DNA of 64,000 bases from Naegleria gruberi (GCA_000004985.1 GG738875.1), one strand, 5' to 3'; positions 8,120 through 64,000 are shown, counted from the stretch's first letter. The notes: a model not told the origin generated them from the sequence alone. Numbers and translations are program-made.

Positions 8120-8155
8120 TGGAGTCATAGGGAATCGAACCCTAGACCTTCTGCA

Positions 8156-8186
<31 letters not shown>

Positions 8187-8192
8187 AACCCC
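8120..8192 (-). tRNA. tRNA-Ala (anticodon UGC)
   Basis: The reverse complement reads GGGGTTATAGCTCAGTTGGTAGAGCGTCTGCTTTGCATGCAGAAGGTCTAGGGTTCGATTCCCTATGACTCCA. It has a 7-bp acceptor stem with a G3:U70 wobble, which is the alanine identity element. Anticodon loop is TTTGCAT and the T-loop is GGTTCGATTCC. A T5 run follows on the minus strand, consistent with a Pol III terminator. No CCA is encoded. Confidence 0.9.
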
Positions 8193-17080: not shown

Positions 17081-17161
17081 GTTGAGGTGGCCGAGTGGTT
17101 AAGGCGCCAGCCTGCTAAGTTGGTGGAGTAATCCGCGTGGGTTCGAATCCCATCCTCAACG
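17081..17161 (+). tRNA. tRNA-Ser (anticodon GCU)
   Basis: GTTGAGGTGGCCGAGTGGTTAAGGCGCCAGCCTGCTAAGTTGG...GGTTCGAATCCCATCCTCAACG. Anticodon loop is CTGCTAA, there is a long variable arm typical of type II tRNAs, and a GTGGNNTAAGGC D-loop. A T-rich stretch lies downstream. Confidence 0.9.
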
Positions 17162-19044: not shown

Positions 19045-19387
19045 TCTCAATATATATCCTCAATAAATCTATATATATGTAAAACAATCAATATTATTTG
19101 ATTTGTAATAAACACAAATCTATAACATGATTACTGGTGTAATATCATGATCATGATTCTGTCTTTTGTGGTGGAAGTGTTTGCAGTTTCCCTCATTGAC
19201 ACAATTATTCAAAAAAGTGGATGAAAAAAGACCAGATTATTTCACCTTGAAGAATTCCAAGTTTGAATTGTCCAAATTAAGACAAATTTACAGCAAAATT
19301 CCTTTGCCTTAAACAATTTTAACAACAAGGAAATTAAAATTCCTCATCTTTATCAACTCGGGTTAAAAAAACAACAGAAAACAACAT

Positions 19388-20824
19388 ATGGTCAAGACAT
19401 TGCTCTCTGCTGCTGCTTGTGTTTTGTTCTTCATCACTACGACTGCTTGCATGGTTAGTGCCATTGCACTTCCTTCTATCCCAGTCAGCACACGAATTTA
19501 TATTGGTAAGTATATAGAGAAAAGGATATATAATATATTACTAACTAATTTATTCAATGTCATCATCATGATCATCATTAAATTTGTGTCATGATTGTTT
19601 GCACCAGGTGGTTCTTTCACTACCTTGAACGATACAAGATATAATAATGTTGCCTACTATGATTTGAAGGAAAAATCCTTTAAGGCCATGGAAAATGGTA
19701 CTAATGATGAAGTTAAGGTTCTTACTACTGATTCATATGGTAATGTTTATATTGGTGGTGCTTTCACTCAATTGGGAACCAAAAAGAGTGGTCCACTTGC
19801 TGTCTGGAATGTTTATCACTCTAAATGGGTTGATACTGGTCTTTCTTCATCAGATTTCACTCCTGGATCTGTGGTTACTGCCATCAGTACTGAATGTACA
19901 AACTCATATGATTTTGATTCGACACAAGGTCTTTTTCCTTGTGATATTTATATTGCTGGTAATTTCAAAGCTTCTGTCTCTGGTAGTAATGCAACAAACA
20001 TCTTGTACTATCACCACAAGAATAAGAAATGGGAAACACAAGCAACCTTGAATGCAACCTATATAACAGTTATTTCCAAGGTTGTCAATAACAATATGGT
20101 ATTTTATGGTGGTAAATTCCATGATGCCAATGGTAAAGAGTATGGTCTTGCCATGTATGACACTTCAAGTAGTTCGTGGATTATGATTGATGGTGTCAGT
20201 GGTGTTACTGATATCTATTATAATTCACATATTTACAGCTCAGATAACATGTTTATTTCTGCTTCTATTTTCGCTTATTCTCAATGTAAGGGTATATGTA
20301 ACTTCAATCTAAGGGATGGATCTTGGACAACACGTTCTGGTATTATTTCCACAGGTTCAGTTAACAAGATTAGATACATTAATGGTTTGTCTGCCTCAAA
20401 TGTTGGTTCAATATTTGTTGGTGGAAGTTTCATGAGTGAATCCTCTGTTGGGAGACGTGATGGAACTGGCGAGTACAGTGCCATTAGTACTAACTATCCT
20501 AAAGAAACTGTTCTAGGTATGGATATTTGTGGTTTGAAAGCTTATGACGTTACTGGTTGCAAAGGTGGATCAGTAGCTGTTGTTGGACAAAACTTCTTCA
20601 AGTTCTATGATGCTAATGATAACATGTGGAAGTCTCTCCTTTCTGAAAATGGGTTCGTATTGAACAGTATTAGTATTACCAATATTCCAGAAATGCCAAT
20701 ACCTTCACCAATACCCTCACCATTTCCAAGCAGTGTACAAGCTAAAATAAGCTCAAGTGAATGCAATAGTTTTAAGGTTCTTTTATTCATTACATTCCTT
20801 TTCATTTTTCATTTAATAAATTAA
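19388..20824 (+). CDS. secreted, probably GPI-anchored, beta-propeller (kelch/galactose-oxidase-like) protein; exons approximately 19388..19505 and 19608..20824
   Basis: Exon 1 encodes a signal peptide (MVKTLLSAAACVLFFITTTACMVSA) and ends ATT G|gtaagt. An intron of about 102 nt ends at tttgcaccag. Exon 2 has repeated Y.GG.F...W units (NVYIGGAFTQLG, MVFYGGKFHD, SIFVGGSFMSE). It has a Pro/Ser-rich stalk and a hydrophobic C-terminal tail consistent with a GPI signal. The ORF-track M at 19595 is a TTG. Confidence 0.5.
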
Positions 20825-37422: not shown

Positions 37423-39129
37423 ATGATATCAACAAAAAGTGAATCATCACACTTACAAGACATAACAATTGAACAACCATTGAAAAACAAGACAAACCTT
37501 CCTTGTTACATTATCAAGAATTTTCTCACACCGAAAGAATGTTCGGAATTTATTGAAAAAGCTGTGAAAATTGGATTTGATTTGGCCTCTCATGATTACC
37601 CACCTTCCTACAGAAATAATGAGAGAATTATAATGGATGACGAAGAGTTGGCAGAGAAAATGACCAAGAAATTGAAACCAATGCTTGATAGTTTGAATTT
37701 AGTGGAATTTGAAAAGGATGGATTGGAATGTGAATTGAAAAGTGTCAATTCTAGATTTAGATTGTGTAGATATCAAGAAGGACAAGAATTTAGAATTCAT
37801 CAAGATGGTGTTCATTACAAATCAAAGTTTGTCAAGTCAATTTTGACATTTATGATTTATTTGAATGAAGAATTTGATAATGGACATACAATTTTCTTCA
37901 AGTCTGGACCTTCCTCAAACCCTCCAGAAGAAATGGGAAAATACAAACCTCAATGTGGTGATTTGATAGTATTTGATCATGAATTGTGGCATTCTGGAGA
38001 AATTGTCAATAATGGTATCAAATATGTCATGAGGAGTGATATCATTTATGATACTATCCCTATTAGTTTTGGAAATAATTCAATCGGAACAATGGAATCA
38101 TTGGAAAATTCGAACAATTGGAATAATTCTCACAATGGATATGTTTGGAAATTAATCAAGGTTGGAAAAGATGATTCCTTAATTGCTAGCGGAGGAAGAG
38201 ACACCACTATAAATATTTTCAACGAATCACTGCAAATCCAATTCAAACTTGAGGGTCACCAAAAATCAGTGCTTGGCTTATCGAAAATGGCAAATAATCA
38301 AATGGTTTCCATTTCCAGAGACCGATCAATTAAGATTTGGGACCTGGAAACGAGAGAATGTATTTTCACCAAAGAGCAAGCTCACAATCATACAGGATTA
38401 TGTGTAGAAGCGGATCCTTTTGATTCTTCAATAATTGCTTCTGGCTCTGCTGATTGTATCATCAAACTTTGGAAATTTGTTGATGGAAAATTAGAATTGT
38501 CCAAACAATTTAACGGCCACAATGGATGGATTTGGTCTTTGAAATGGATTACAATTGAAGGAGAGAGGATGCTCTTGTCTGCATCTGAGGATGGATCCAT
38601 ACGAGTCTGGAATAGTGAAACTGGCTCGTGTCACATTATTGATCAATTACAAAATCCTCTTAGGTGCCTTACTACTTTTAATTATCCAAATTCACAAATG
38701 GACACCATTATTTGTCTTGGAGACAATGAAGGCAATCTCTATCTCTATTATGTAAAAGGGGGTTTTAGTAATTTTAGTACGAAACGAACAGAATTCAAGA
38801 ACTTGCACAGGGCCTCAATAAGAACTGTTAAATTTATTAGTTCTCACATGATTGTAACAGGCTCTGAAGACTATTCTGTAATGTTATGGAAACTGAAGCA
38901 TGAGCTTTCCTCAATACCTCAACTACATCATGTCTATACCTTCAATCACAATAATTTTGTCACAGACTGTCTCTCACAATTTCACAATGAACAACAAGCA
39001 CAAGAGGAGGATAATCAATTCGCCTCCTTCTTCACTTCCTCCTATGATGGCGCCATTAAGAAACACCAAGTATCACTCTCATCGACAAGTCTTTCTTTAA
39101 CTTTGCTTGGCATGATTGGTACCAATTAA
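37423..39129 (+). CDS. 2-oxoglutarate/Fe(II) prolyl-4-hydroxylase-like domain fused to WD40 repeats
   Basis: The N-terminal domain has the P4H-type facial triad RIHQDG (HxD)...ELWHSGE (distal His)...KYVMRSDIIY (2OG-binding basic residue) and no signal peptide. The C-terminal half has six or more WD-like repeats (SGGRDTTINIF, SISRDRSIKIWDL, SGSADCIIKLW, SASEDGSIRVW, TGSEDYSVMLW). Confidence 0.7.
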   Translation: MISTKSESSHLQDITIEQPLKNKTNLPCYIIKNFLTPKECSEFIEKAVKIGFDLASHDYPPSYRNNERIIMDDEELAEKMTKKLKPMLDSLNLVEFEKDGLECELKSVNSRFRLCRYQEGQEFRIHQDGVHYKSKFVKSILTFMIYLNEEFDNGHTIFFKSGPSSNPPEEMGKYKPQCGDLIVFDHELWHSGEIVNNGIKYVMRSDIIYDTIPISFGNNSIGTMESLENSNNWNNSHNGYVWKLIKVGKDDSLIASGGRDTTINIFNESLQIQFKLEGHQKSVLGLSKMANNQMVSISRDRSIKIWDLETRECIFTKEQAHNHTGLCVEADPFDSSIIASGSADCIIKLWKFVDGKLELSKQFNGHNGWIWSLKWITIEGERMLLSASEDGSIRVWNSETGSCHIIDQLQNPLRCLTTFNYPNSQMDTIICLGDNEGNLYLYYVKGGFSNFSTKRTEFKNLHRASIRTVKFISSHMIVTGSEDYSVMLWKLKHELSSIPQLHHVYTFNHNNFVTDCLSQFHNEQQAQEEDNQFASFFTSSYDGAIKKHQVSLSSTSLSLTLLGMIGTN

Positions 39130-39292
39130 GGATGCACAAAAAGAGCCTTTACACCGGTCAAGCTCCTCATCTTATCAGAAGCAAACATGGTCGAGTTTAA
39201 CAATTAAGAAAAATCGAAACAAAAAAAAACCGCCCTTCTACGGAGGAAAGAGATCCACACACGGAGACGTCATTTTCATCAGCGAGTGAGAT

Positions 39293-41867
39293 ATGCCTTG
39301 CGGAAAGGAAGTAAATCATGTTCGGATAGAGCCCTCTAATATTATTGTTTGTAATCATCAGATGATGAAGGAGAATGGACCATTACCATCAACATCAACA
39401 TCATCATGTAAATTAAGGCACCATAAGGATGTACTACTGCTGCATCCAAAGAGGAACAAAACAAGAAAAGTTTCCAAGTGTAAAGTAGAAACAACACGTA
39501 GTGTTGATTGTGATGATTCTTCGTCTTCAGCATCACACTCGGTACCATCAATATTAAATGTGGTACTAAGGTTCAAAAGCCTATTCTTCCTCATATGCTT
39601 CTTCTTCTTCTTCTCACATGATACATGCCTTGTTGGAAAGGTAGAGGCGATAACATGCCCAAACGGAGTGGATAATCTTCACATACAAACAAATTGGGTG
39701 ATGCAAGCACAATATGGTGCCTTTCAAGCAGCAGTGGAGATGGGATTTTATGATAATGAATGTTTGAATGTTGTTATCAAATTGGGTATGTTGTACAAGA
39801 AATGTTGAACATTGTTGACATGATCTTACATCTATAACAATGTTAAATATTTTATGATAATGTTATCATTGTATTATGTACAACGATGATGTGGATCAAC
39901 ATGCCTCAAATTATATGATAAAAAAGGTGGACCTAATGCTGATCCAATAGCAGTAATTAAAAGTGGTGAAGCTCAATTGGGAGTTTTCTTATATTCGAGA
40001 GTTTTGGTCAATAGAGAGCTTGGCTTGGACTTTGTAAATATTTTCCAACATTATTCGAGAGGTGGATTGACAATGGTTTCGAGGACAGAATCTGAGATAT
40101 CAACCTTCCCACAATTCAAAGGGAAGAATATTGGATATTGGGTTGGTAATGATTACTCCCTGCTTGCCACAATGAAGAAATATAATATAGATACCAAAAC
40201 GGAAATGAGCTTGAGATTGCAATCTTTCTCAATTTTACCATTGTTGGAACAACCTGAAAGGTAGGTTAATATTTTCTTGACTTTTTACCTTTAATTTTTT
40301 TCTAAACATTTTACTATTAAGATATGATGTTATTATGGCAATGGGATATGATCAATTGGGAAATCTTTTGATGACTGCAAAGAAAGATTCAAGTGGAAAA
40401 CCGACTGATGAATTGTATTCGATTGGAAGAGATTTAAATATCTTGGATTTCAATGCAGAACAAACTGCCATGTTGGAAGATTGTATTGTTATGAACAAGG
40501 CTTGGTATGACACCAATCCAATCAAAAATAAGGACATTCTAGTTCGTTTCTTGAAAGCAACTATTAAGGGATTGATTACCTGTAGAGATTATGAAACCAA
40601 ATGTTTCAATTTAATGCCAGATAAGAGTGCACATCAAGTTTGGTCAGTGAGAGAAGTCAACAAATTAATTTGGCCTGCTAATTTAAATGGAGTAGGATGG
40701 ATGAATACTACCTTATTGAACAGAACTATAGACGTTGCTTACAAATTTGGAGTAATTAATTCATTAGCTTCAGCTAATGGATCTTATGATTCTCAATTTG
40801 TTGAAGAAGCCATGCGACAATTTAGAAAAGGACTAGCGGATGGAAGTATTTCAGATAAGTATTCTGATTTAGTAGCACCAAACTATGGTCCAACCTCACA
40901 CGAATTCTGCTATGACGTTACAACTGATACTGTTTTCATTTGTAATGGAAAACTTGATACCCTTCGTGTAACTGTACTTGTTGTAGGAATAGTATTGGGA
41001 AGTGTGATGGTAATGTCTGCCGTTTTGGGACTGTTGGCCATTGCGTTTGGCTTTACTCTCTTGAAGAAACGAAGAGAATTGCTAATGTTTGCCCCTACAG
41101 AAAAGGATGAATCATTCCCAATTGTTTTCACTGATATTCAACAATCAACAAAATTATGGAATGCCTTCCCAGAGGAAATGAAAATTGCTCTGGAACTTCA
41201 CAATCAATTGCTGCGGAGATTATTAGATGAATATGAAGGATATGAATGTAAATCACAAGGAGATGGATTGATGGTCGCTTTCAGAGATCCAATCAATGCA
41301 TTGAAATGGATGTTGAGAAGTCAAGTGGAATTAATGAAATTGGATTGGCCAGAACATTTAATGGATCAAGAACATGCAAAATTTGAGGTTGATAATGTTG
41401 GTAAAATGATATTCAGAGGATTGAGAGTGAGAATGGGAGGTGGAATGTGTAAACCAGATGTAAAAAGGGACAAAATTGGACGGATTGATTATCTAGGTAA
41501 TGATGTGAATCAAGCTGCAAGAGTTGGAAGCATTGCAGTGGGTGGCCAAATTGTCATTCATCAAAATTTGTATGAGGAAGTTTCACACAAACTTACGGAC
41601 CTCATCATTAGAGGAGAAACAAAAGCTCCACCGTTCAATTTTCTAGGTTTCTACATGCTTAAAGGAATTGACGGAGTTCATGCTCTGTATGACATATTGC
41701 CAGCAAGTATTCACTTTAGAAAATCTCTCTTTCCACCAATTTTCGATGAAGCAAAAGGACTTCTAATTAAGGAACTTGAAGAAACAGCAATCATTGCCAC
41801 AACCACAGATATAATGGACGAACCAGAAGCTCAAGGTTCAGGAGAGAAATCTAGCAATGAAATTTAA
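39293..41867 (+). CDS. receptor-type class III nucleotidyl (adenylate-like) cyclase A: cytosolic leader, TM1, NMT1/SsuA/THI5-like solute-binding ectodomain, TM2, cyclase domain; exons approximately 39293..39785, 39927..40260, 40322..41867
   Basis: Exon 1 ends ...NECLNVVIKLG|gtatgt. Exon 2 runs GPNADPIAVIKSGEAQLGVF...LLEQPER and ends AG|gtaggt. Exon 3 begins after ttaag with YDVIMAMGYDQLGN. The ectodomain has periplasmic binding protein (PBP) type-2 NMT1-like blocks (WVMQAQYGAFQAA, FPQFKGKNIGYWVG). A hydrophobic TM follows (LRVTVLVVGIVLGSVMVMSAVLGLLAIAFGF), then the cyclase domain: FTDIQQSTKLWN...CKSQGDGLMVAFRDP...GNDVNQAARVGSIAVGGQIVI. A Lys at the base-recognition position suggests ATP. There is no in-frame ATG immediately before the first hydrophobic segment, so the start at 39293 gives a roughly 100-aa cytosolic leader. 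Confidence 0.7.
39640..40700 (+). repeat. paralogous segment shared with 42410..43400; exons near-identical, introns diverged
   Basis: The last ~150 nt of exon 1, all of exon 2 and the first ~330 nt of exon 3 are about 90% or more identical at DNA level between cyclase genes A and B, with short divergent patches. Introns 1 and 2 differ in length and sequence (141 vs 75 nt; 61 vs 52 nt). Confidence 0.7.
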
Positions 41868-42241
41868 GGAATTCAAGCCCCTCCTGTGATGGACAGTAGA
41901 CTAAACAATGAGATCCTCAATCTCCAAAATCGTTAAAGTCCAACCTTTTAAGAACCTCAACATTATTTCTTAAGGACACTTTGGCGCTTAATATTCGCAA
42001 CCCTTTATGGCAGTTTGGTCTGATGTGTACTGCAAAAACGACCAAATAAAGATCTGTAAAGCCTAATTTCGTGCCCTTAGTAATCATCCCGTTTGACCTC
42101 ACAAGAAATCATCTCTTTGCTATACTGATTCAACCCTCCTCCGCTAATTAATAACTTCTATTCAAGAAGAAAAAACCATCACATCAACAACTTTATTGTA
42201 GTTTTTAGAGAGAGATTAAGGATTGATTGGTATAGACTAAA

Positions 42242-44540
42242 ATGATGATGGCAATATTCAATTCAAAAAGAAAGAATACATATCTGCTGCATCAAATAGG
42301 GCTTGTTGATGATATAAAGAAAATGAAATTATATTCTTTTCATCAAGGAAAGACCTTATTTACAACCTTCTTATTTATTGTACTACTTTTAATTGTGATG
42401 ATGATCAATTGGGTAGAGGCCATTACTTGTCCTAATGGTGTTGATAATATAAATATACAAACAAATTGGGTGATGCAGGCACAGTATGGTGCCTTTCAAG
42501 CAGCTGTTGAGATGGGATTTTATGATAATGAATGTTTGAATGTTGTTATCAAATTGGGTATGTTGTCATGTGTATTGTACTATTAACCTTGTTGTTACTG
42601 ATCTGGTGTTGGTATCTTCTCTTATAAAATAGGTGGACCTAATGCTGATCCAATAGCAGTAATTAAAAGTGGTGAAGCTCAATTGGGAGTTTTCCTATAT
42701 TCGAGAGTTTTGGTCAATAGAGAGCTGGGCTTAGATTTTGTAAATATTTTCCAACATTATTCGAGAGGTGGATTGACAATGGTTTCGAGGACAGAATCAG
42801 GGATTTCCTCTTTTCCACAGTTTAAGGGGAAGAATATTGGTTATTGGGTTGGTAATGATTACTCCTTATTAGCAACCATTAAGAAACATGGAATGGATCC
42901 AAAAACAGAAATGAGCTTGAGATTGCAATCTTTCTCAATTTTACCATTGTTGGAACAACCTGAAAGGTAGGTGTCTTTTAACTTGGATTTGTTGTTTTAT
43001 TAATGCTAAACTATTAAGATATGATGTTATTATGGCAATGGGATATGATCAATTGGGAAATCTTTTGATGACTGCAAAGAAAGATTCAAATGGAAAATCA
43101 ACTGAAGAATTGTATTCGATTGGAAGAGATTTAAATATCTTGGATTTCAATGCAGAACAGACTGCCATGTTGGAAGATTGTATTGTGATGAACAAGGCAT
43201 GGTATGACACTAATCCAATCAAAAATAAGGACATTCTAGTTCGTTTCTTGAAAGCCACTATTAAGGGATTGATTACATGTAGAGATTATGAAACAAAATG
43301 TTTCAATTTAATGCCAGATAAGAGTGCACATCAAGTTTGGTCAGTGAGAGAAGTCAACAAATTAATTTGGCCTGCCAATTTAAATGGAATTGGTTCATTG
43401 AATGTTTCTCGTATCAATCAAACAATTGATATTGCTTACAAATTTGGAGTTATTAAATCGTTAGCTCCAGCCAATGGATCCTACGATTCTCAATTTGTGG
43501 ACGAAGCTCTTAAGCACTTCAAAACAGGACTAGCCGATGGAACAGTCTTGAATACCTATTCTGATTTAGTAGCACCAAATTATGGTCCAACCTCACACGA
43601 ATTTTGCTATGATCTAACAACTGAAACAGTTTTTATTTGTAATGGAAAAGTTAACTATTCAAATGTTATCATCGCTGTCATTGTTTCAGTTTTAGGATGT
43701 GCCCTACTGGTTGCTGCAATTATTGGTGCCTGTGCATTCATTGTTTGGAGAAGGCACGTGGCAAGAAGGAACAGAATTCTCGTCTATGCACCAACAGAAA
43801 AGGATGAATCATTCCCAATTGTTTTCACTGATATTCAACAATCAACAAAATTATGGAATGCAGCTCCTGATGATATGAAAATTGCTCTCGAGCTTCACAA
43901 TCAACTACTAAGAAAATTGCTTGCAGAGTACGAGGGATATGAATGTAAATCACAAGGAGATGGATTGATGGTCGCATTCAGAGATCCAATCAATGCTTTG
44001 AAATGGATGTTGAGAAGTCAGGTGGAATTGATGAAATTAGATTGGCCAGAACATTTAATGGATCAAGAACATGCAAAATTCGAAGTTGACAATGTTGGTA
44101 AAATGATATTCAGAGGATTGAGAGTGAGAATGGGAGGTGGAATGTGTAAACCAGATGTCAAAAAAGATTCCATGGATAAAGTTGACTATTTCGGCAATGA
44201 TGTGAATCAAGCTGCAAGAGTTGGAAGTATTGCAGTGGGTGGCCAAATTGTCATTCACGAGAATTTATATCACGAAATCATGACAAGACTTTCTGAGCTA
44301 ATATTCAGAGGTGAAACCAAGTCACCTGTCGTTAACTTCCTTGGGCCATACTGTCTTAAAGGAATTGAAGGTGTGCATGTCTTGTATGATATTCTACCAG
44401 CTAGCATTCAAAACAGAAAGACATTATTCCCAACTGAATGTGATGAAGCTAAGGGAACATTGTGGAAACCAAGTGACTCGGATGGAAATACTCCACAACA
44501 ATTAGTCGATCAATTAGAAAGCAAACGATTTGAAAAATAA
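42242..44540 (+). CDS. receptor-type class III nucleotidyl cyclase B, tandem paralog of A; exons approximately 42242..42557, 42633..42966, 43019..44540
   Basis: Same three-exon structure as A: donor gtatgt after KLG, exon 2 GPNADP...QPER, donor gtaggt, exon 3 YDVIMAMGYDQLGN.... The N-terminal signal/anchor is MKLYSFHQGKTLFTTFLFIVLLLIVMMINWVEA. The TM is IIAVIVSVLGCALLVAAIIGACAFIVW. The cyclase domain is near-identical to A, and the C-terminal tail differs. Confidence 0.7.
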
Positions 44541-44675
44541 ACATTTTCCAAAATGCACCCAATTTTCATCATTATTTTCAAAGATCTTTTCTACTGCTTA
44601 ATCAAAATTGAATTTCACTCAAATTCTTAAAATAACATTGGAAAATCCAAATTGCTTTCAAAAAAACAAAAAAAA

Positions 44676-45761
44676 ATGTCCCAATTATCGATTAGAACTA
44701 CATCCTATCATTTGCCAAATCTAAATGATGATGAGCAATCATTTAAATTACAATTATTTTCAAGTGCAGAACAATTCTGGGATTACACCTCTTCCTATCT
44801 GATGGAATTTCCAGCAGAGAATAATCTCGTGTTGGGAATTATAAAATCTTGCATTGAAACTCCGAATCGATTTTCTTCCGATAAGAGGTTCTTGATGAGT
44901 ATTGAAGATTTGGAGGGAAATATTCAGATGGTAATTGTGTGGACTATTCCATTCTTGATTCTGACAAGTTATTCGAAAGAGATGGAGAAGAGAAGGGTAA
45001 TATTGAAGAGTTTGATTGGATTCTTTTTGAGAAATGATTACGAAACTTTGAGAATTGAAGGAGAATTTAAAGCAGTAGAAGAAATGATTTCGACTTATGG
45101 AAGGAAATGTAATGGAATTTTATCAGATGATGAAGAATCTGAATGGTTTATTCAAGAATATTGTAAAGAAAGAGAACTGCTTTATCCTAATCAAAAATTG
45201 AATGTTATTCGAAATATTGGAATGACAACCTATCGATTGAGTTTGCAAGATTTAACACCTCTTAAAAGAGATTATCAAGATTTAGAATTTCACATTCTAG
45301 ATTTACACGAAACTAATCGTGTAGAGGAATATCTTGATAGATTACAGGAATTTTACAAAACTGTCTTTCCAGAAAAGGAACAAAACAGTAGAGAATATAT
45401 CATGGAGTTTATTCTTAGTAGAACTGCTTCCCGCCAAAATGCTTACTATTGCATTCGAAAGGAAAATCCATCCAAAATGATTGCCATCAGTATGGCCAAT
45501 CCACTTCCTCAATCAGCCAGAGTTTCATGTGTAATGAGTATTCCAGACGAAAGAGGAAAGGGAATTGGAAGTTACATTGTGCATCAAATGGCCAAAGATT
45601 TACTTGTTGAAAAACCCAAATTGACTGGAGAGCCATGTCAATGTTTGTTCTTGTTTGCTGACTTGTCCAATCCATCGGCAATTCATTTGTATGAAGGAGC
45701 AGGATTTAAGGGTGTTAGAAATGTGTGCGAATTGGAAATTAAATATCAGGATGAGGAATAA
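44676..45761 (+). CDS. GNAT-family N-acetyltransferase-like protein
   Basis: The C-terminal region has the acetyl-CoA binding motif ...VMSIPDERGKGIGSYIVHQMAKDL... (Q/R-x-x-G-x-G/A) and ...LYEGAGFKGV. The ORF-track start 44652 is a TTG; the first ATG is at 44676 (MSQLSIRTT). Confidence 0.5.
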   Translation: MSQLSIRTTSYHLPNLNDDEQSFKLQLFSSAEQFWDYTSSYLMEFPAENNLVLGIIKSCIETPNRFSSDKRFLMSIEDLEGNIQMVIVWTIPFLILTSYSKEMEKRRVILKSLIGFFLRNDYETLRIEGEFKAVEEMISTYGRKCNGILSDDEESEWFIQEYCKERELLYPNQKLNVIRNIGMTTYRLSLQDLTPLKRDYQDLEFHILDLHETNRVEEYLDRLQEFYKTVFPEKEQNSREYIMEFILSRTASRQNAYYCIRKENPSKMIAISMANPLPQSARVSCVMSIPDERGKGIGSYIVHQMAKDLLVEKPKLTGEPCQCLFLFADLSNPSAIHLYEGAGFKGVRNVCELEIKYQDEE

Positions 45762-53810: not shown

Positions 53811-54127
53811 ACCAATATATTCTCTCTAAAGAATAAAAAAAAAGCAGAAGAAGCAGAGAGCAATGTATTGACCATGTTTTCTGTTGTTTTTTTAACCTTT
53901 ATTAACCCGTTATTTGTCTTTATTTGGACAATTCAAAACTTGGAATTCTTCACTGGTGAATTTGTTGAACTTTTTCATCCAATTTTTTACTTAATGCTTA
54001 TAAAGAACTCACTTTGTCAATAAAGAATTAATGATAAGCAATTTTAAATTTTTCTGCAATTTTCCATCACAATTATTGTAAACAAAGTTCATCTCCTGTT
54101 GTAAACTCATTAAAAAAATAGCTCAAC

Positions 54128-60727: not shown

Positions 60728-63700
60728 TTAACACCAAATCATTTGAACGAGCAAGATGACAATGCAATAGAATGAAAGATGGGTTGCATTTGCAGATGCT
60801 AACTTGAAACTTCCCTGAGGAGTGGTAATGTTTGAATTTTGAACCTTTACAGATTGACTTGGTTTTGGGCCAGGTTTTGGAGAAGGTTTAGGAGAAGGAC
60901 TTGAAGATTGTTGAGGAATTGGAGAAGGTTTAGGGGAAGGTTGTGGAGAAGGAACAGGTACCATTGAAGAACAGTTGAGTCCTGTGAAACCTGCAAAACA
61001 AGTGCAAGTATCTGGTTTGGAACAATTTCCATGTCCAGAACAAACCAAGCTGTCACTTTCAGTCTTACCGTAACAAACAACTTGTTCACACTCTTTACCT
61101 GTATAACCAACATTACAAGTGCATTGATCATGGCCACTACAGCTTCCTCTTCCACCACATACAGAAATAGAGTTTGAGGGTATACTAAAGCAGGTAGTCA
61201 ATGAACAATCTACACCAAACCAATTTTCAGGGCAAGAAACTGATTTATGCTCACAGTTACTGCCATAATAACCATCTTTACATGTACAATTATTAAATGA
61301 AGAACAAGTTCCATTACCTGAGCATACATTTGAGTTAACTTTTGATATACCATAACAATCATACATTTCACAATTGGATCCATAATATCCAATTTCACAA
61401 GTACAATTGTTTGGAGAAGCACATTTTCCTTTTCCAGAACAAACAGTATTATTCATAAAATGTACTCCATAACAATTAAATTGATTGCAACTGCTTCCAA
61501 AATATTCATCAATGCAAGAACAGTTATTTGGAGATGGACACGATCCATGTGATGAACATACATTAGTGTCTGTTTTTGATACTCCATAACAATTGAAATT
61601 TTCACAATTATTACCAAAATAATCTTGTTGACAGGTGCAATTATTCAAAGAAGAGCAAACACCATTACCTGAACACACATTAGAGTTGGATTTTGCAAAA
61701 CCATTACAATCATACATTTCACAATTGCTGCCATAGTAACCTTGTTGACAGGTGCAGTTATTGGATGAAACACAAGTTCCATGACTTGAACAAACACTTG
61801 AATTCAATTTAGAAATATTATCACAATCATATATTTCACAATTACTGCCATAGTAACCTTGTTGGCAAGTACAATTATTGAATGAAGAACAAACTCCATG
61901 AGCTGAGCATACATTTGAGTTAACTTTTGATATACCATAACAATCATACATTTCACAATTGGATCCATAATATCCAATTTCACATGTACAATTATTTGGA
62001 GAAGCACATTTTCCTTTTCCAGAACACACAGAAGCATTACTAAACTTAACATTGAAACACTTGAAATCTTCACAATTAATTCCAAAATATTCATCAATGC
62101 AAGAACAGTTATTTGGAGATAGACATGATCCATGTGATGAACATACATTAGTGTCTGTTTTTGATACTCCATAACAATTGAAAATTTCACAATTATTACC
62201 ATAATAATCTTGTTGACAGGTGCAATTATCGAATGAAGTGCAAACACCATGACCTGAACATGTATTTGAGTTGTTTTTGGATAAGCCATAACAATTATAC
62301 ATTTCACAATTGGATCCATAATAACCAATTTCACAAGTGCAATTATTTGGAGAAGCACATTTTCCTTTTCCAGAACACACAGAAGCATTACTAAACTTAA
62401 CATTGAAACACTTGAACTCTTCACAATCATTACCAAAATAGCCTTCAAAACAAGAGCAATTATTTGGAGAGTTGCAAGTACCATGAGAAGAACACACCAT
62501 TGTGTTTTTAGAACTAATACCGTTACAGACCACGTCTTGACAATACGAACCAGAGTATCCAGCATTACAAGTGCAGTTATTCATACCAACACAAGCTCCT
62601 ACCGATGAACATACTGTGCTAGAGTTGAAAGGAATAGAGTTACAATAAAAGTATTGACAAGTTTCACCATAATAACCACTTGCACAAGAACAATTATTTG
62701 GAGATGCACAACTTCCATGGGATGAGCAAACGTTTGATTGATTATTCAATAAACCATAGCAATAAAACTCCCCACAATTTGGACCAAAGTAATTGGTAGA
62801 GCACCAAGGAGTTAGGGTTCTAATCAGATTCATATCATTAATATAAATTTCACCAGTTGAACTAATGGCAACTCCAGTAGGATTAATTAATCTAACACTT
62901 GTTGCAAAACCATCACTAATGAAATTAGTGGATCCTATAATTCCATTTCCTGCAATCGTTGAAATAATACCAGTTGTTGTTATTCTACGAATTACATAAT
63001 TGGAAGTATCAGCAATATAAACTTCTCCACTTGAACTAATGGCAATTCCATTTGGATAATTTAATTGAGCACTTGTTGCCAAACCACCATCACCACTATA
63101 TCCAGAAAGTCCAGTTCCTGCAATTGTGGTGATATTTCCATCTGTTGTGATTTTACGAATTCTATTGTTAATTCTATCAGCAATATAAACTTCTCCACTT
63201 GAACTAATGGCAATTCCAGTAGGACTATTTAAATGAGCACTTGTTGCCAAACCACCATCGCCACCATATGCTGCAAGTCCAGTTCCTGCAATTGTTGAAA
63301 TAATACCACCTGTTGAGATTTTACGAATTCTATGATTGTTGGTGTCAGCAATATAAATTTCACCATTTGCAGAAAACTCAAAAGTAGTAGCAGAAATATA
63401 AGCTGCAGTTGCAGCTATTCCGTCGCCTATACCACCAACTACAGTAAAAATGTTTCCTGATGTAATTTTACGAATTCTATGATTGTTACTATCGGCAATA
63501 TAAATATCACTAGTTGAGCTAATGGCAACTCCAGTAGGAAAATATATCTTGGCACTTGTTGCCAAACCACCATCGCCACCATATGTAACAACTCCAGTTC
63601 CTGCAACGGTTGAAATAATACCAGATGTAGTAATTTTACGAATTCTATGATTGGCTCTATCGGCAACATAAATTTCACCAGTTGAACTAATGGCAACTCC

Positions 63701-63982
63701 AGAGGGAGTGTTTAACTTGGCACTTGTTGCCAAGCCACCATCACCACTATATCCATTAGTTCCAGTTCCTGCAATTGTTGAAATAATACCAGCTGTGGAA
63801 ATTTTACGAATTCTATGATTACCATAATCAGCAATATAAATTTCGCCAGTGGAACCAATGGCAATTCCAGTAGGAACGCTTAGTTTTGCACTTGTTGCCA
63901 AGCCACCATCACCACTATATCCATAAGTTCCAGTTCCTGCAATTGTTGAAATAATACCAGATGTTGTTACTTTACGAATCAC
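60728..63982 (-). CDS. large secreted/surface protein with N-terminal NHL repeats plus about 20 tenascin-type EGF-like repeats; the 5' end runs off the window
   Basis: The N-terminal half has many NHL units (GEIYIADYGNHRIRKISTAGIISTIAGTG...). The C-terminal half has C-x-GxGxC-x-C-x-GYYGxNCE EGF repeats, a P/S-rich stalk (PVPSPQPSPKPSPIP...) and a hydrophobic C-terminus (LSFYCIVILLVQMIWC) consistent with a GPI signal or TM. The ORF reaches position 63982 still open, near the window edge, so the N-terminus is probably truncated. Confidence 0.7.
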   Translation of the reverse strand: MIRKVTTSGIISTIAGTGTYGYSGDGGLATSAKLSVPTGIAIGSTGEIYIADYGNHRIRKISTAGIISTIAGTGTNGYSGDGGLATSAKLNTPSGVAISSTGEIYVADRANHRIRKITTSGIISTVAGTGVVTYGGDGGLATSAKIYFPTGVAISSTSDIYIADSNNHRIRKITSGNIFTVVGGIGDGIAATAAYISATTFEFSANGEIYIADTNNHRIRKISTGGIISTIAGTGLAAYGGDGGLATSAHLNSPTGIAISSSGEVYIADRINNRIRKITTDGNITTIAGTGLSGYSGDGGLATSAQLNYPNGIAISSSGEVYIADTSNYVIRRITTTGIISTIAGNGIIGSTNFISDGFATSVRLINPTGVAISSTGEIYINDMNLIRTLTPWCSTNYFGPNCGEFYCYGLLNNQSNVCSSHGSCASPNNCSCASGYYGETCQYFYCNSIPFNSSTVCSSVGACVGMNNCTCNAGYSGSYCQDVVCNGISSKNTMVCSSHGTCNSPNNCSCFEGYFGNDCEEFKCFNVKFSNASVCSGKGKCASPNNCTCEIGYYGSNCEMYNCYGLSKNNSNTCSGHGVCTSFDNCTCQQDYYGNNCEIFNCYGVSKTDTNVCSSHGSCLSPNNCSCIDEYFGINCEDFKCFNVKFSNASVCSGKGKCASPNNCTCEIGYYGSNCEMYDCYGISKVNSNVCSAHGVCSSFNNCTCQQGYYGSNCEIYDCDNISKLNSSVCSSHGTCVSSNNCTCQQGYYGSNCEMYDCNGFAKSNSNVCSGNGVCSSLNNCTCQQDYFGNNCENFNCYGVSKTDTNVCSSHGSCPSPNNCSCIDEYFGSSCNQFNCYGVHFMNNTVCSGKGKCASPNNCTCEIGYYGSNCEMYDCYGISKVNSNVCSGNGTCSSFNNCTCKDGYYGSNCEHKSVSCPENWFGVDCSLTTCFSIPSNSISVCGGRGSCSGHDQCTCNVGYTGKECEQVVCYGKTESDSLVCSGHGNCSKPDTCTCFAGFTGLNCSSMVPVPSPQPSPKPSPIPQQSSSPSPKPSPKPGPKPSQSVKVQNSNITTPQGSFKLASANATHLSFYCIVILLVQMIWC
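61200..62600. repeat. near-identical tandem duplication of EGF-repeat coding units inside the NHL/EGF gene
   Basis: DNA blocks such as 61321-61450 and 61921-62050 are almost identical; gcacattttccttttccagaaca recurs at about 61421, 62021 and 62351. The minus-strand antisense ORFs repeat the same peptide (…LSLVMLLCVLEKENVLLQII.HVKLDIMDPIVKCMIVMVYQKLTQMYAQ) three times. Confidence 0.7.
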
Positions 63983-64000
63983 ATTATTGTTAGTATCAAC

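What the first reader, a model, noticed from the sequence alone, without database searches (positions are those of the whole stretch)
39640..43400. Mosaic near-identity between the two cyclase paralogs is confined to exons
The exon 1 tail, exon 2 and the first third of exon 3 are nearly identical at DNA level between copies A and B, including synonymous positions, and are interrupted by short divergent patches (for example the segment encoding ESEISTFPQFK vs ESGISSFPQFK...MKKYNIDTK vs IKKHGMDPK). Both introns have diverged completely in sequence and length. The N-terminal leaders are unrelated (about 100 aa vs about 30 aa) and the C-terminal tails differ. This pattern suggests gene-conversion tracts between tandem copies, or very recent exon-level homogenisation, rather than simple old or recent duplication. 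It may mark which parts, such as the ligand pocket, are free to diverge.
Basis: seen in the sequence. Interest (0 to 1): 0.55.

Follow-up and report, generated by a model that had tools for sequence, protein, structure and literature searches.

The report
Exon-limited gene conversion between tandem cyclases
Two neighbouring receptor-type cyclase genes of the amoeba Naegleria gruberi are an old duplicate pair whose exons have been repeatedly patched to match each other by short gene-conversion events while their introns, leaders and tails drifted apart: a clear example of a well-known process.

Summary
The window is Naegleria gruberi. It holds two tandem three-exon genes, A (39293-41867) and B (42242-44540). 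Each encodes an NMT1/THI5-type solute-binding domain, one transmembrane segment and a class III cyclase domain.

- **Mosaic:** the coding alignment splits into seven blocks at about 3% mismatch (dS 0.165, dN 0.003) and eight blocks at 29-49% mismatch (dS saturated). Three further near-identical blocks lie in the cyclase domain.
- **Not chance:** silent differences are strongly clustered (0 of 100,000 permutations).
- **Introns and flanks:** intron interiors and both flanks are no more alike than shuffled sequence.
- **Not silent-site constraint:** a more distant metagenomic relative shows dS 0.75-1.8 in the same blocks.
- **Old duplication:** a closely related environmental strain (dS 0.02) has both loci in tandem. 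Each keeps its own leader and the same divergent islands. Its A-type intron 1 and B-type intron 2 are 97-100% identical to the window's. So the duplication is old and the introns evolve slowly.

Best reading: recurrent short-tract interlocus gene conversion confined to blocks that still share homology. This pattern is documented in other organisms. The idea that the divergent patches mark the ligand pocket is not supported. One oddity is unexplained: the two longest perfect-identity runs straddle the two exon junctions.

The parts
39293..41867 (+). Gene A: 790 aa, three exons (39293-39785, 39927-40260, 40322-41867). It has a leader with a hydrophobic anchor, an NMT1/THI5-like solute-binding domain, one TM segment and a class III cyclase domain.
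   Evidence: Clean translation with GT..AG introns. Pfam PF09084 1.1e-17 and PF00211 1.3e-16. Matches N. gruberi protein P0002 across both junctions.
42242..44540 (+). Gene B: 723 aa, three exons (42242-42557, 42633-42966, 43019-44540), with the same architecture as gene A.
   Evidence: 100% match to N. gruberi protein P0001.
39786..39926 (+). Intron 1 of A, 141 nt. It cannot be aligned with intron 1 of B apart from GTATGTTGT at the 5' end and 8 of 9 nt at the 3' end.
   Evidence: interior score reached by 66/500 shuffles. 138 of 140 aligned nt are identical to the orthologous intron in the related strain. Folds into hairpins, z = -2.45.
42558..42632 (+). Intron 1 of B, 75 nt.
   Evidence: Its first 47 nt are conserved in the relative's contig L002 with 2 changes.
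40261..40321 (+). Intron 2 of A, 61 nt. It matches intron 2 of B only at GTAGGT and ACTATTAAG.
   Evidence: interior score reached by 247/500 shuffles.
42967..43018 (+). Intron 2 of B, 52 nt.
   Evidence: 52/52 identical to the B-type intron carried by contig L001. This intron is absent in the outgroup contig L003.
39683..40092 (+). Converted block C1 in A (exon 1 tail plus the 5' half of exon 2, excluding intron 1). Partner in B is 42455-42798. 8 mismatches in 269 nt, all silent.
   Evidence: HMM segmentation. dS A-B is 0.12-0.25 against 0.75-1.8 to the outgroup.
40093..40201 (+). Divergence island D1 in A. Partner in B is 42799-42907. It consists of two sub-islands at 36% mismatch around a 39-nt conserved core.
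   Evidence: dS A-B is 2.1, about the same as to the outgroup. Site counts: O=A 12, O=B 9, neither 5.
40202..40691 (+). Converted block C2 in A (exon 2 end plus the first third of exon 3, excluding intron 2). Partner in B is 42908-43388. 12 mismatches in 429 nt.
   Evidence: Contains the 130-nt perfect run that straddles junction 40260|40322.
40692..41096 (+). Diverged block D2 in A (C-terminal part of the binding domain, juxtamembrane region and TM segment). Partner in B is 43389-43793. 30-48% mismatch, with a small 56-nt converted patch at 40860-40915.
41097..41164 (+). Converted block C3 in A (start of the cyclase domain). Partner in B is 43794-43861. 0 mismatches in 68 nt.
41165..41237 (+). 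Divergence island D3 in A. Partner in B is 43862-43934. 31.5% mismatch; dS is saturated although 20 of 24 residues are identical.
41238..41461 (+). Converted block C4 in A (cyclase core). Partner in B is 43935-44158. 8 mismatches in 224 nt, all silent.
41462..41498 (+). Divergence island D4 in A. Partner in B is 44159-44195. 49% mismatch. The A type is conserved in the related strain.
41499..41560 (+). Converted block C5 in A. Partner in B is 44196-44257. 1 mismatch in 62 nt.
41561..41864 (+). Diverged 3' part of the cyclase domain and the C-terminal tail, D5 in A. Partner in B is 44258-44537. 44% mismatch.
   Evidence: The A type is retained in the related strain.

Best explanation
A and B arose by an old tandem duplication, about as old as the split from the species represented by contig L003. 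Since then, repeated short non-allelic (interlocus) gene-conversion events have copied stretches of tens to a few hundred bases between the two genes. These events occur only where enough sequence identity remains for strand pairing.

Unconstrained sequence drifted and acquired indels until it could no longer pair. This applies to the introns, the leaders, the UTRs, the TM segment and the C-terminal tail. Such sequence now bounds the tracts. Exon stretches under protein-level constraint stay similar enough to keep being converted, so the process reinforces itself.

A few exonic islands (D1, D3, D4) have escaped conversion. Either selection keeps paralogue-specific residues, or clustered substitutions terminated conversion there by chance.

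**Shown:** the mosaic, its statistical significance, the age of the duplication, the slow evolution of the introns, and the absence of silent-site constraint.
**Inferred:** the molecular route (DNA-templated, homology-limited) and the reason the islands persist.
For: **Mosaic and significance.**
- dS runs from 0 to saturated along one alignment. C blocks have dS 0.165 and dN 0.003; D blocks have dS saturated and dN 0.34.
- Silent differences are clustered beyond 100,000 permutations.
- Seven C blocks alternate with eight D blocks.

**Age of the duplication.**
- Introns, leaders and flanks are no more alike than shuffles.
- In D1 the A-B distance is about the same as the distance to the outgroup.
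- The related strain (dS 0.022 in the upstream gene) has both loci in tandem, with paralogue-specific leaders, introns and D4/D5 islands.

**Introns evolve slowly.** The A-type intron 1 and the B-type intron 2 recovered from the related strain are 138/140 and 52/52 identical to the window's.

**No silent-site constraint or cold spot.** The outgroup differs at dS 0.75-1.8 in the same tracts.

**Tracts of several ages.** They range from perfect runs to dS of about 0.4-0.5.

**Evidence of a recent small tract.** At 39706 and 39712 the pattern is A = A' = B' = 'A' while B and the outgroup have 'G'. This is most simply a 7-49 nt A-to-B tract in the relative around or after the strain split.

**Precedent in the literature.**
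- Interparalogue conversion is 'usually reported for exonic regions', and intron divergence may impede it (PMC3966223).
- Tigriopus GOT1Sd/GOT1Sr show exon-restricted tracts with an unalignable intron, plus divergence islands (PMC3728101).
- Capitella Dlx genes show identity on both sides of an intron and for its first 12 nt only (PMC3199776).
Against: - **No GC3 rise in converted blocks.** GC3 is 0.29 in both classes, so there is no GC-biased conversion signature.
- **Exon edges are not depleted of identity.** A plain barrier model, in which the edges of a homology block convert less often, does not predict that all four exon edges next to the heterologous introns are perfectly identical for 49-71 nt. 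Nor does it predict that the two longest perfect runs in spliced coordinates are the two that straddle the junctions (naive post hoc p of about 5e-4).
- **Very short tract T3.** T3 (40202-40260) is only 59 nt between two heterologies, which is short for efficient DNA-level conversion.
- **Limited comparative data.** Only two paralogues and fragmentary data from relatives are available, so donor, recipient and exact tract ends cannot be assigned. No segment-wise phylogeny with full orthologues could be built.
Confidence: 0.85

Rival explanations
1. The tracts were laid down by events that skip the intron. One route is a single heteroduplex spanning exon, intron and exon, in which exon mismatches are repaired to the donor while the intron bubble is restored (a discontinuous tract). 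The other route is repair templated by the spliced transcript or cDNA of the paralogue. This differs from the best explanation only in mechanism.
For: - In spliced coordinates the two longest perfect runs (111 and 130 nt) are centred on the two exon junctions.
- Only 2.35% of coding positions have at least 49 nt of perfect identity on both sides, and both junctions do.
- In spliced coordinates the 59-nt T3 and 103-nt T1 pieces join into homology blocks of 429 and 269 nt.
- Intron 2 is absent from the outgroup contig L003. Intron loss or gain, classically linked to cDNA recombination, therefore happens in this family.
Against: - A tract copied from an intronless template across a junction should delete the intron, yet both introns are retained in both copies and in the relative.
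- The statistic is post hoc and rests on two junctions.
- Identity continues 6-9 nt into each intron. A cDNA template cannot supply that, although splice or branch signals could explain it.
- If contig L001 is real, it shows DNA-level transfer that includes intron 2.
Confidence: 0.08
2. The duplication was recent, and the divergent patches were introduced afterwards, either by accelerated evolution or by conversion from a third, more distant paralogue.
For: The near-identical blocks on their own would fit a young duplicate. N. gruberi has many cyclases (at least 81 in the genus pangenome, PMC9928731).
Against: - Introns, leaders and flanks are at shuffle level, although introns evolve slowly (97-100% identical between strains).
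- Both loci, with the same divergent islands, exist in a related strain.
- D1 is as distant between A and B as it is from the outgroup.
- No third close paralogue turned up in two protein searches. Those searches are word-indexed and not exhaustive.
Confidence: 0.03
3. The identical stretches reflect selection on silent sites (codon bias, RNA structure, splicing enhancers) or local mutational cold spots, not sequence exchange.
For: The tracts coincide with the most conserved protein segments, and perfect identity hugs the exon junctions.
Against: - The outgroup shows dS 0.75-1.8 and many silent changes in exactly these stretches, including next to the junctions.
- Other equally conserved protein stretches have saturated dS (aa 557-586 and 217-246).
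- GC3 is the same in both classes of block.
Confidence: 0.02
4. The pattern is an assembly artefact, such as a collapsed or chimeric assembly of two alleles or copies.
For: None specific. Tandem near-identical segments are a known risk for assemblers.
Against: - Perfect runs are at most 71 nt in genomic DNA, far shorter than Sanger reads.
- The copies differ by interspersed substitutions and have distinct introns.
- An independent metagenome assembly recovers the A 3' end, intergenic region and B exon 1 arrangement and the A-specific 5' context.
Confidence: 0.01

Closest known systems
Mosaic interlocus gene conversion with exon-restricted tracts and unalignable introns, as in Tigriopus californicus GOT1Sd/GOT1Sr (PMC3728101) and Capitella teleta Dlxa/Dlxb (PMC3199776); reviewed for Caenorhabditis in PMC3966223
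   Same: - Linked paralogues with near-identical exon stretches, silent sites included.
- Introns too diverged to align, with identity reaching only a few bases into the intron.
- Islands of divergence inside exons.
- Detection by clustering of differences.
   Different: - The organism (a heterolobosean amoeba) and the gene family are new.
- The introns are very short (52-141 nt), yet fully excluded. In C. elegans, compact introns are often co-converted.
- The perfect-identity runs are centred on the exon junctions.
Divergence islands maintained by selection against conversion (the Teshima-Innan model; RH and opsin examples as cited in PMC3728101)
   Same: Short exonic islands (D1, D3, D4; 37-109 nt) with saturated dS lie between converted tracts. 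Each contains paralogue-specific amino-acid differences.
   Different: There is no evidence here for positive or divergent selection. dN is well below dS in the islands. Differing residues are not concentrated at positions conserved in the family. No functional data exist.
[quoted passage not shown]
   Same: Homogenisation of tandem duplicates coexists with divergence where structural heterogeneity separates the copies.
   Different: The trypanosome arrays are intronless, polycistronic and often multi-copy. Here there is one two-gene pair with spliceosomal introns that act as tract boundaries.
Receptor-type adenylate cyclases of kinetoplastids (ESAG4/GRESAG4 type). This comparison rests on my own knowledge and was not tested here.
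   Same: An extracellular periplasmic-binding-protein-like domain, a single TM helix and an intracellular class III cyclase domain. The lineage (Discoba) is related.
   Different: The sensor domain here is an NMT1/THI5-type binding protein. Its best fold matches are the thiamin-bound SBP 4nmy and the pyrimidine-binding ThiY 3ix1, and it is 35-39% identical to bacterial NitT/TauT-family SBPs. It is not the LivJ/ANF-receptor type.

Membership tests
Interlocus (non-allelic) gene conversion between paralogues | Differences between the paralogues are significantly clustered, giving long shared fragments beyond chance (the Sawyer/GENECONV criterion). | tested here: met
   longest silent-identical run is 59 codons against a permutation mean of 19 and maximum of 41. 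Number of runs is 125 against 186. Sum of squared run lengths is 7872 against 2878. 0 of 100,000 permutations reach any of the three.
Interlocus (non-allelic) gene conversion between paralogues | Silent-site identity in the tracts is not explained by constraint or a low mutation rate, as judged against an outgroup. | tested here: met
   T2: dS A-B 0.12 against 1.3-1.4 to L003. T3/T4: 0.04 against 0.8-0.9. T1: 0.25 against 0.75-1.8. This covers exon 1 to the start of exon 3 only.
Interlocus (non-allelic) gene conversion between paralogues | The duplication predates the apparent age of the identical segments: unconverted segments are old, and both copies are present in relatives. | tested here: met
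   introns and flanks are at shuffle level, and the D1 A-B distance is about the outgroup distance; the related strain carries both loci with paralogue-specific leaders, introns and islands.
Interlocus (non-allelic) gene conversion between paralogues | Segment-wise phylogenetic incongruence using complete orthologues of both copies from several taxa. | tested here: inconclusive
   Only fragments were available (L001 3.8 kb, L002 1.2 kb, L003 0.8 kb). Sites 39706 and 39712 suggest a strain-specific small tract. The hybrid contig L001 may be a real recombinant or an assembly chimera.
Interlocus (non-allelic) gene conversion between paralogues | A GC-biased signature in converted regions. This is frequent but not obligatory. 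| tested here: not met
   GC3 is 0.29 in converted blocks and 0.29 in diverged blocks, in both copies.
Selection-maintained divergence islands (Teshima-Innan) | The islands are centred on functionally divergent residues and show evidence of selection. | tested here: inconclusive
   The islands contain amino-acid differences, but dN is below dS. Differing positions are only marginally less conserved in homologues (0.62 vs 0.71, p = 0.057). There are no functional data.
NMT1/THI5-like solute-binding protein domain | Pfam PF09084 match above the gathering score, and a class II periplasmic-binding fold. | tested here: met
   65 and 73 bits against a cut-off of 20.5. AlphaFold model with pLDDT 81; Foldseek hits 4nmy (E 1.5e-18, TM 0.80) and 3ix1 (E 8e-17).
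Class III adenylate/guanylate cyclase | Pfam PF00211 match, and the catalytic residues (two metal-binding Asp, a substrate Lys/Asp pair, transition-state Asn/Arg). | tested here: met
   61 and 66 bits against a cut-off of 21.9. By eye in the translation, both copies contain FTDI, KSQGDG, DY(L/F)GNDVNQAAR. Assigning these motifs to catalytic roles rests on my knowledge of the family. Enzyme activity was not tested.

The most novel reading that the evidence does not exclude
The homogenising events in this pair systematically span exon junctions while leaving the introns untouched. That would mean either discontinuous heteroduplex repair across an intron bubble, or use of the paralogue's spliced transcript or cDNA as the repair template. 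It would point to a splicing-aware or RNA-templated route of concerted evolution in Naegleria.
Probability: 0.08. Interest if true: 0.7.

Novelty: new member of a known kind. Interest (0 to 1): 0.3.

Why it matters
- **Annotation and phylogeny.** Divergence-based dating of this pair, and probably of other Naegleria paralogues, is unreliable in the converted blocks. Introns and divergence islands carry the true history.
- **Evidence for recombination.** Homologous recombination has acted repeatedly and recently in N. gruberi, an organism in which sex has never been observed directly.
- **Function.** The escaped islands (D1 in lobe 2 of the binding domain, the juxtamembrane/TM segment, D3-D5 in the cyclase domain) are the only places where the two receptors can differ. 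They are the natural targets for swap experiments.
- **Limits.** None of this changes current understanding of gene conversion.

Tried and rejected
**A mistake.** It still returned the environmental relatives (P0007, P0008, P0010, P0013), but no full-length survey was possible.

**Searches that found nothing.**
- The look-up of encoding contigs on the JGI models P0001 and P0002.
- Both JGI metagenome scans: peptide patterns IQTNWVM/VEMGFYD and the 24-mer GCAATGGGATATGATCAATTGGGA.
- The third protein search, which returned only bacterial SBPs besides P0001. No exon-3 DNA from relatives, and no outgroup for the cyclase-domain tracts, could therefore be obtained.
- The single-sequence PDB search; a profile was needed.
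- Rfam on 39000-45000, so there is no known RNA in the introns.
- A literature search for ThiY ligand-contact residues to map the pocket.

**Analyses that could not be done or gave a negative answer.**
- Pocket mapping from the AlphaFold model was not possible because coordinates are not returned. I used family conservation as a proxy.
- The GC-biased conversion test was negative.
- No other paralogue pair suitable for comparison exists in the window (self-BLAST).

**Readings considered and rejected.**
- Fast-evolving introns: contradicted.
- Independent intron gain at identical positions: implausible, since positions and phases are identical and the introns are stable between strains.
- A third-paralogue donor: none was found.

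Full report
**Identity of the locus.** The window is AT-rich eukaryotic DNA (GC about 0.34). The two genes match Naegleria gruberi predicted proteins at 100% (P0001 for B, P0002 for A, on a 396-kb contig).

- Gene A: exons 39293-39785, 39927-40260 and 40322-41867, 790 aa.
- Gene B: exons 42242-42557, 42633-42966 and 43019-44540, 723 aa.

Both translate cleanly, and both intron positions and phases are identical in the two genes. Each protein has an N-terminal leader ending in a hydrophobic stretch, an NMT1/THI5-like solute-binding domain, one TM helix and a class III cyclase domain. An AlphaFold model of the binding domain (pLDDT 81) matches the thiamin-bound SBP 4nmy and the pyrimidine-binding ThiY 3ix1. 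Only these two copies occur in the window.

**Check of the observation.** The DNA alignment and a two-state segmentation of the 1,998 aligned coding bases give seven 'converted-like' blocks at 0-3.6% mismatch. These alternate with eight 'diverged' blocks at 29-49% mismatch.

- It is incomplete. Further near-identical blocks lie in exon 3 at A 40860-40915, 41097-41164, 41238-41461 and 41499-41560.
- Nei-Gojobori windows run from dS = 0 to saturation. Saturation also occurs where the protein is conserved, for example aa 557-586 with dN of about 0.1.
- Pooled values: dS 0.165 and dN 0.003 in converted blocks; dS saturated and dN 0.34 in diverged blocks.
- Among 513 identical-residue degenerate codons, 121 differ. 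Their clustering exceeds all 100,000 permutations on three statistics.
- Intron interiors (123 vs 57 nt and 46 vs 37 nt), the leaders and the 3' flanks align no better than shuffled sequence. Only 6-9 nt at each splice site match.

**Relatives found.** By mistake I spent the only exhaustive protein search on the 48-aa exon-1 tail of B. It nevertheless recovered short ORFs from ENA metagenome assemblies. After a second indexed search, their contigs could be fetched.

- **L001 and L002.** Both come from one sample (ERZ929261) and belong to a very close relative. dS is 0.022 in the upstream 2OG-oxygenase/WD40 gene.
- **L002** spans the A-type 3' end, the intergenic region and B-type exon 1 into B-type intron 1. 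The tandem pair is therefore independently confirmed. Islands D4 and D5, and both leaders, are paralogue-specific in that strain too.
- **Introns in the relative.** The A-type intron 1 is 138/140 identical to the window's, and the B-type intron 2 is 52/52 identical. Introns here evolve slowly, so the lack of similarity between the A and B introns reflects age.
- **L003** comes from a more distant species, 75-88% identical at the nucleotide level. It covers exon 1 to the start of exon 3 and serves as an outgroup.

**Outgroup tests.**

| Segment | dS A-B | dS to L003 |
|---|---|---|
| T1 | 0.25 | 0.75-1.8 |
| T2 | 0.12 | 1.3-1.4 |
| T3/T4 | 0.04 | 0.8-0.9 |
| D1 | 2.1 | saturated |

These values remove silent-site constraint or a mutational cold spot as explanations for this part of the gene. 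In island D1 the A-B distance is as large as either distance to L003. Informative sites there split 12 (O=A), 9 (O=B) and 5 (neither). The duplication is therefore about as old as that species split. Together with the intron and flank results, a recent duplication is excluded.

**Evidence for ongoing exchange.** The tracts have different ages, from perfect runs to dS of about 0.4-0.5. At window sites 39706 and 39712, A, the relative's A-type contig and the relative's B-type contig all carry 'A'. Window B and the outgroup carry 'G'. The simplest reading is a small A-to-B tract of 7-49 nt in the relative, near or after the strain split.

**The hybrid contig L001.** It is A-type from the upstream gene through exon 1, intron 1 and the first half of exon 2. 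It then switches to B-type inside a 62-nt stretch where A and B are identical. The B-type part runs for at least 750 nt and includes B's intron 2. There are two possible readings.

- It is a real recombinant or a long conversion tract. That would prove DNA-level transfer that can include an intron.
- It is a megahit chimera formed at low coverage. L002 ends 29 nt before B exon 2, which suggests a coverage gap exactly there.

I cannot decide between these without the reads.

**Mechanism.** The best-supported account is an old tandem duplication followed by recurrent short-tract interlocus gene conversion, limited to blocks that retain homology. Unconstrained segments (introns, leaders, TM segment, tails) diverged and gained indels, and they now terminate tracts. 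Constrained exon segments remain convertible.

The exonic islands may be kept by selection for paralogue-specific residues or by chance 'terminator' clusters, and the data do not discriminate. A/B-different residues are only marginally less conserved among 27 bacterial homologues (0.62 vs 0.71, p = 0.057). The conserved motif inside D1 is identical at the protein level. There is no GC3 increase in converted blocks.

**An unexplained detail.** In spliced coordinates, the two longest perfect runs straddle the two exon junctions: 111 nt (49+62) and 130 nt (59+71). Only 2.35% of coding positions have at least 49 identical bases on both sides (naive post hoc p of about 5e-4). A simple barrier model predicts, if anything, less conversion at the edges of a homology block.

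Possible readings are chance, discontinuous repair of a heteroduplex spanning the intron, or a spliced RNA/cDNA template. The last is weakened because crossing a junction should delete the intron. Identity also extends a few bases into the introns. The outgroup lacks intron 2, so intron loss or gain does occur in this family. I rate the intron-skipping reading at about 8%.

**Comparison with what is known.** Exon-restricted interparalogue conversion with unalignable introns, identity reaching only a few bases into an intron, and divergence islands within exons are all documented.

- The Caenorhabditis review states that conversion is usually reported for exons and that intron divergence may impede it (PMC3966223).
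- Tigriopus GOT1 paralogues (PMC3728101).
- Capitella Dlx genes (PMC3199776).
- Concerted evolution of tandem arrays in another discobid, T. brucei (PMC1855330).

I found no report of this for Naegleria cyclases.

**Verdict.** This is a new member of a known kind. Interest is modest (0.3).

Noticed in passing
L001:2919-3842 (equivalent to window 40093-40845 / 42799-43547): Metagenome contig L001 from a close N. gruberi relative is A-type upstream. It switches to B-type, including B's intron 2, inside a 62-nt stretch where A and B are identical. It is either a natural A5'/B3' recombinant or an assembly chimera.
   Followed up: partly
L003:300-700: The more distant relative has intron 1 at the same position (a short intron of unrelated sequence) but lacks intron 2 entirely: ...CAACCTGAAAG|ATATGATGCA... 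is continuous. Intron presence therefore varies within this gene family.
   Followed up: partly
window 39786-39926: Intron 1 of copy A contains inverted repeats and folds into two long hairpins (-31.7 kcal/mol, z = -2.45, 2/200 shuffles fold as well). Intron 1 of B does not. The A intron may carry a palindromic insertion that accounts for the length difference. There is no Rfam match.
   Followed up: partly
window 37423-39129: The upstream gene encodes a fusion of a 2OG-Fe(II) oxygenase domain and a WD40 beta-propeller. It is conserved in the related strain (dS 0.022, dN 0.005).
   Followed up: partly
window 39641-41090 (protein level); P0036, P0041-P0065: The extracellular sensor domain is 35-39% identical to bacterial NitT/TauT-family ABC substrate-binding proteins. 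An SBP-TM-cyclase protein with the same layout occurs in the diplonemid Lacrimia lanifica (P0036). The fusion may therefore be old within Discoba, or the SBP domain may be of bacterial origin.
   Followed up: no
window 61251-62505 and 62828-63998: Two runs of diverged internal tandem repeats at 66-85% identity. The first run has offsets in multiples of about 117 nt. These are presumably repeat-domain coding sequence.
   Followed up: no
window 19211-19431 and 53829-53988: A short inverted pair of similar segments (about 83% identity over 70-80 nt pieces), 34 kb apart. They are not tRNA genes; the only tRNAs found are at 8120-8192 and 17081-17161.
   Followed up: no
L004:5864-6405: A still more distant homologue (69% nucleotide identity in exon 2) sits next to an RNB-domain gene, not next to the WD40 gene. 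The locus context is therefore not conserved at that distance.
   Followed up: no
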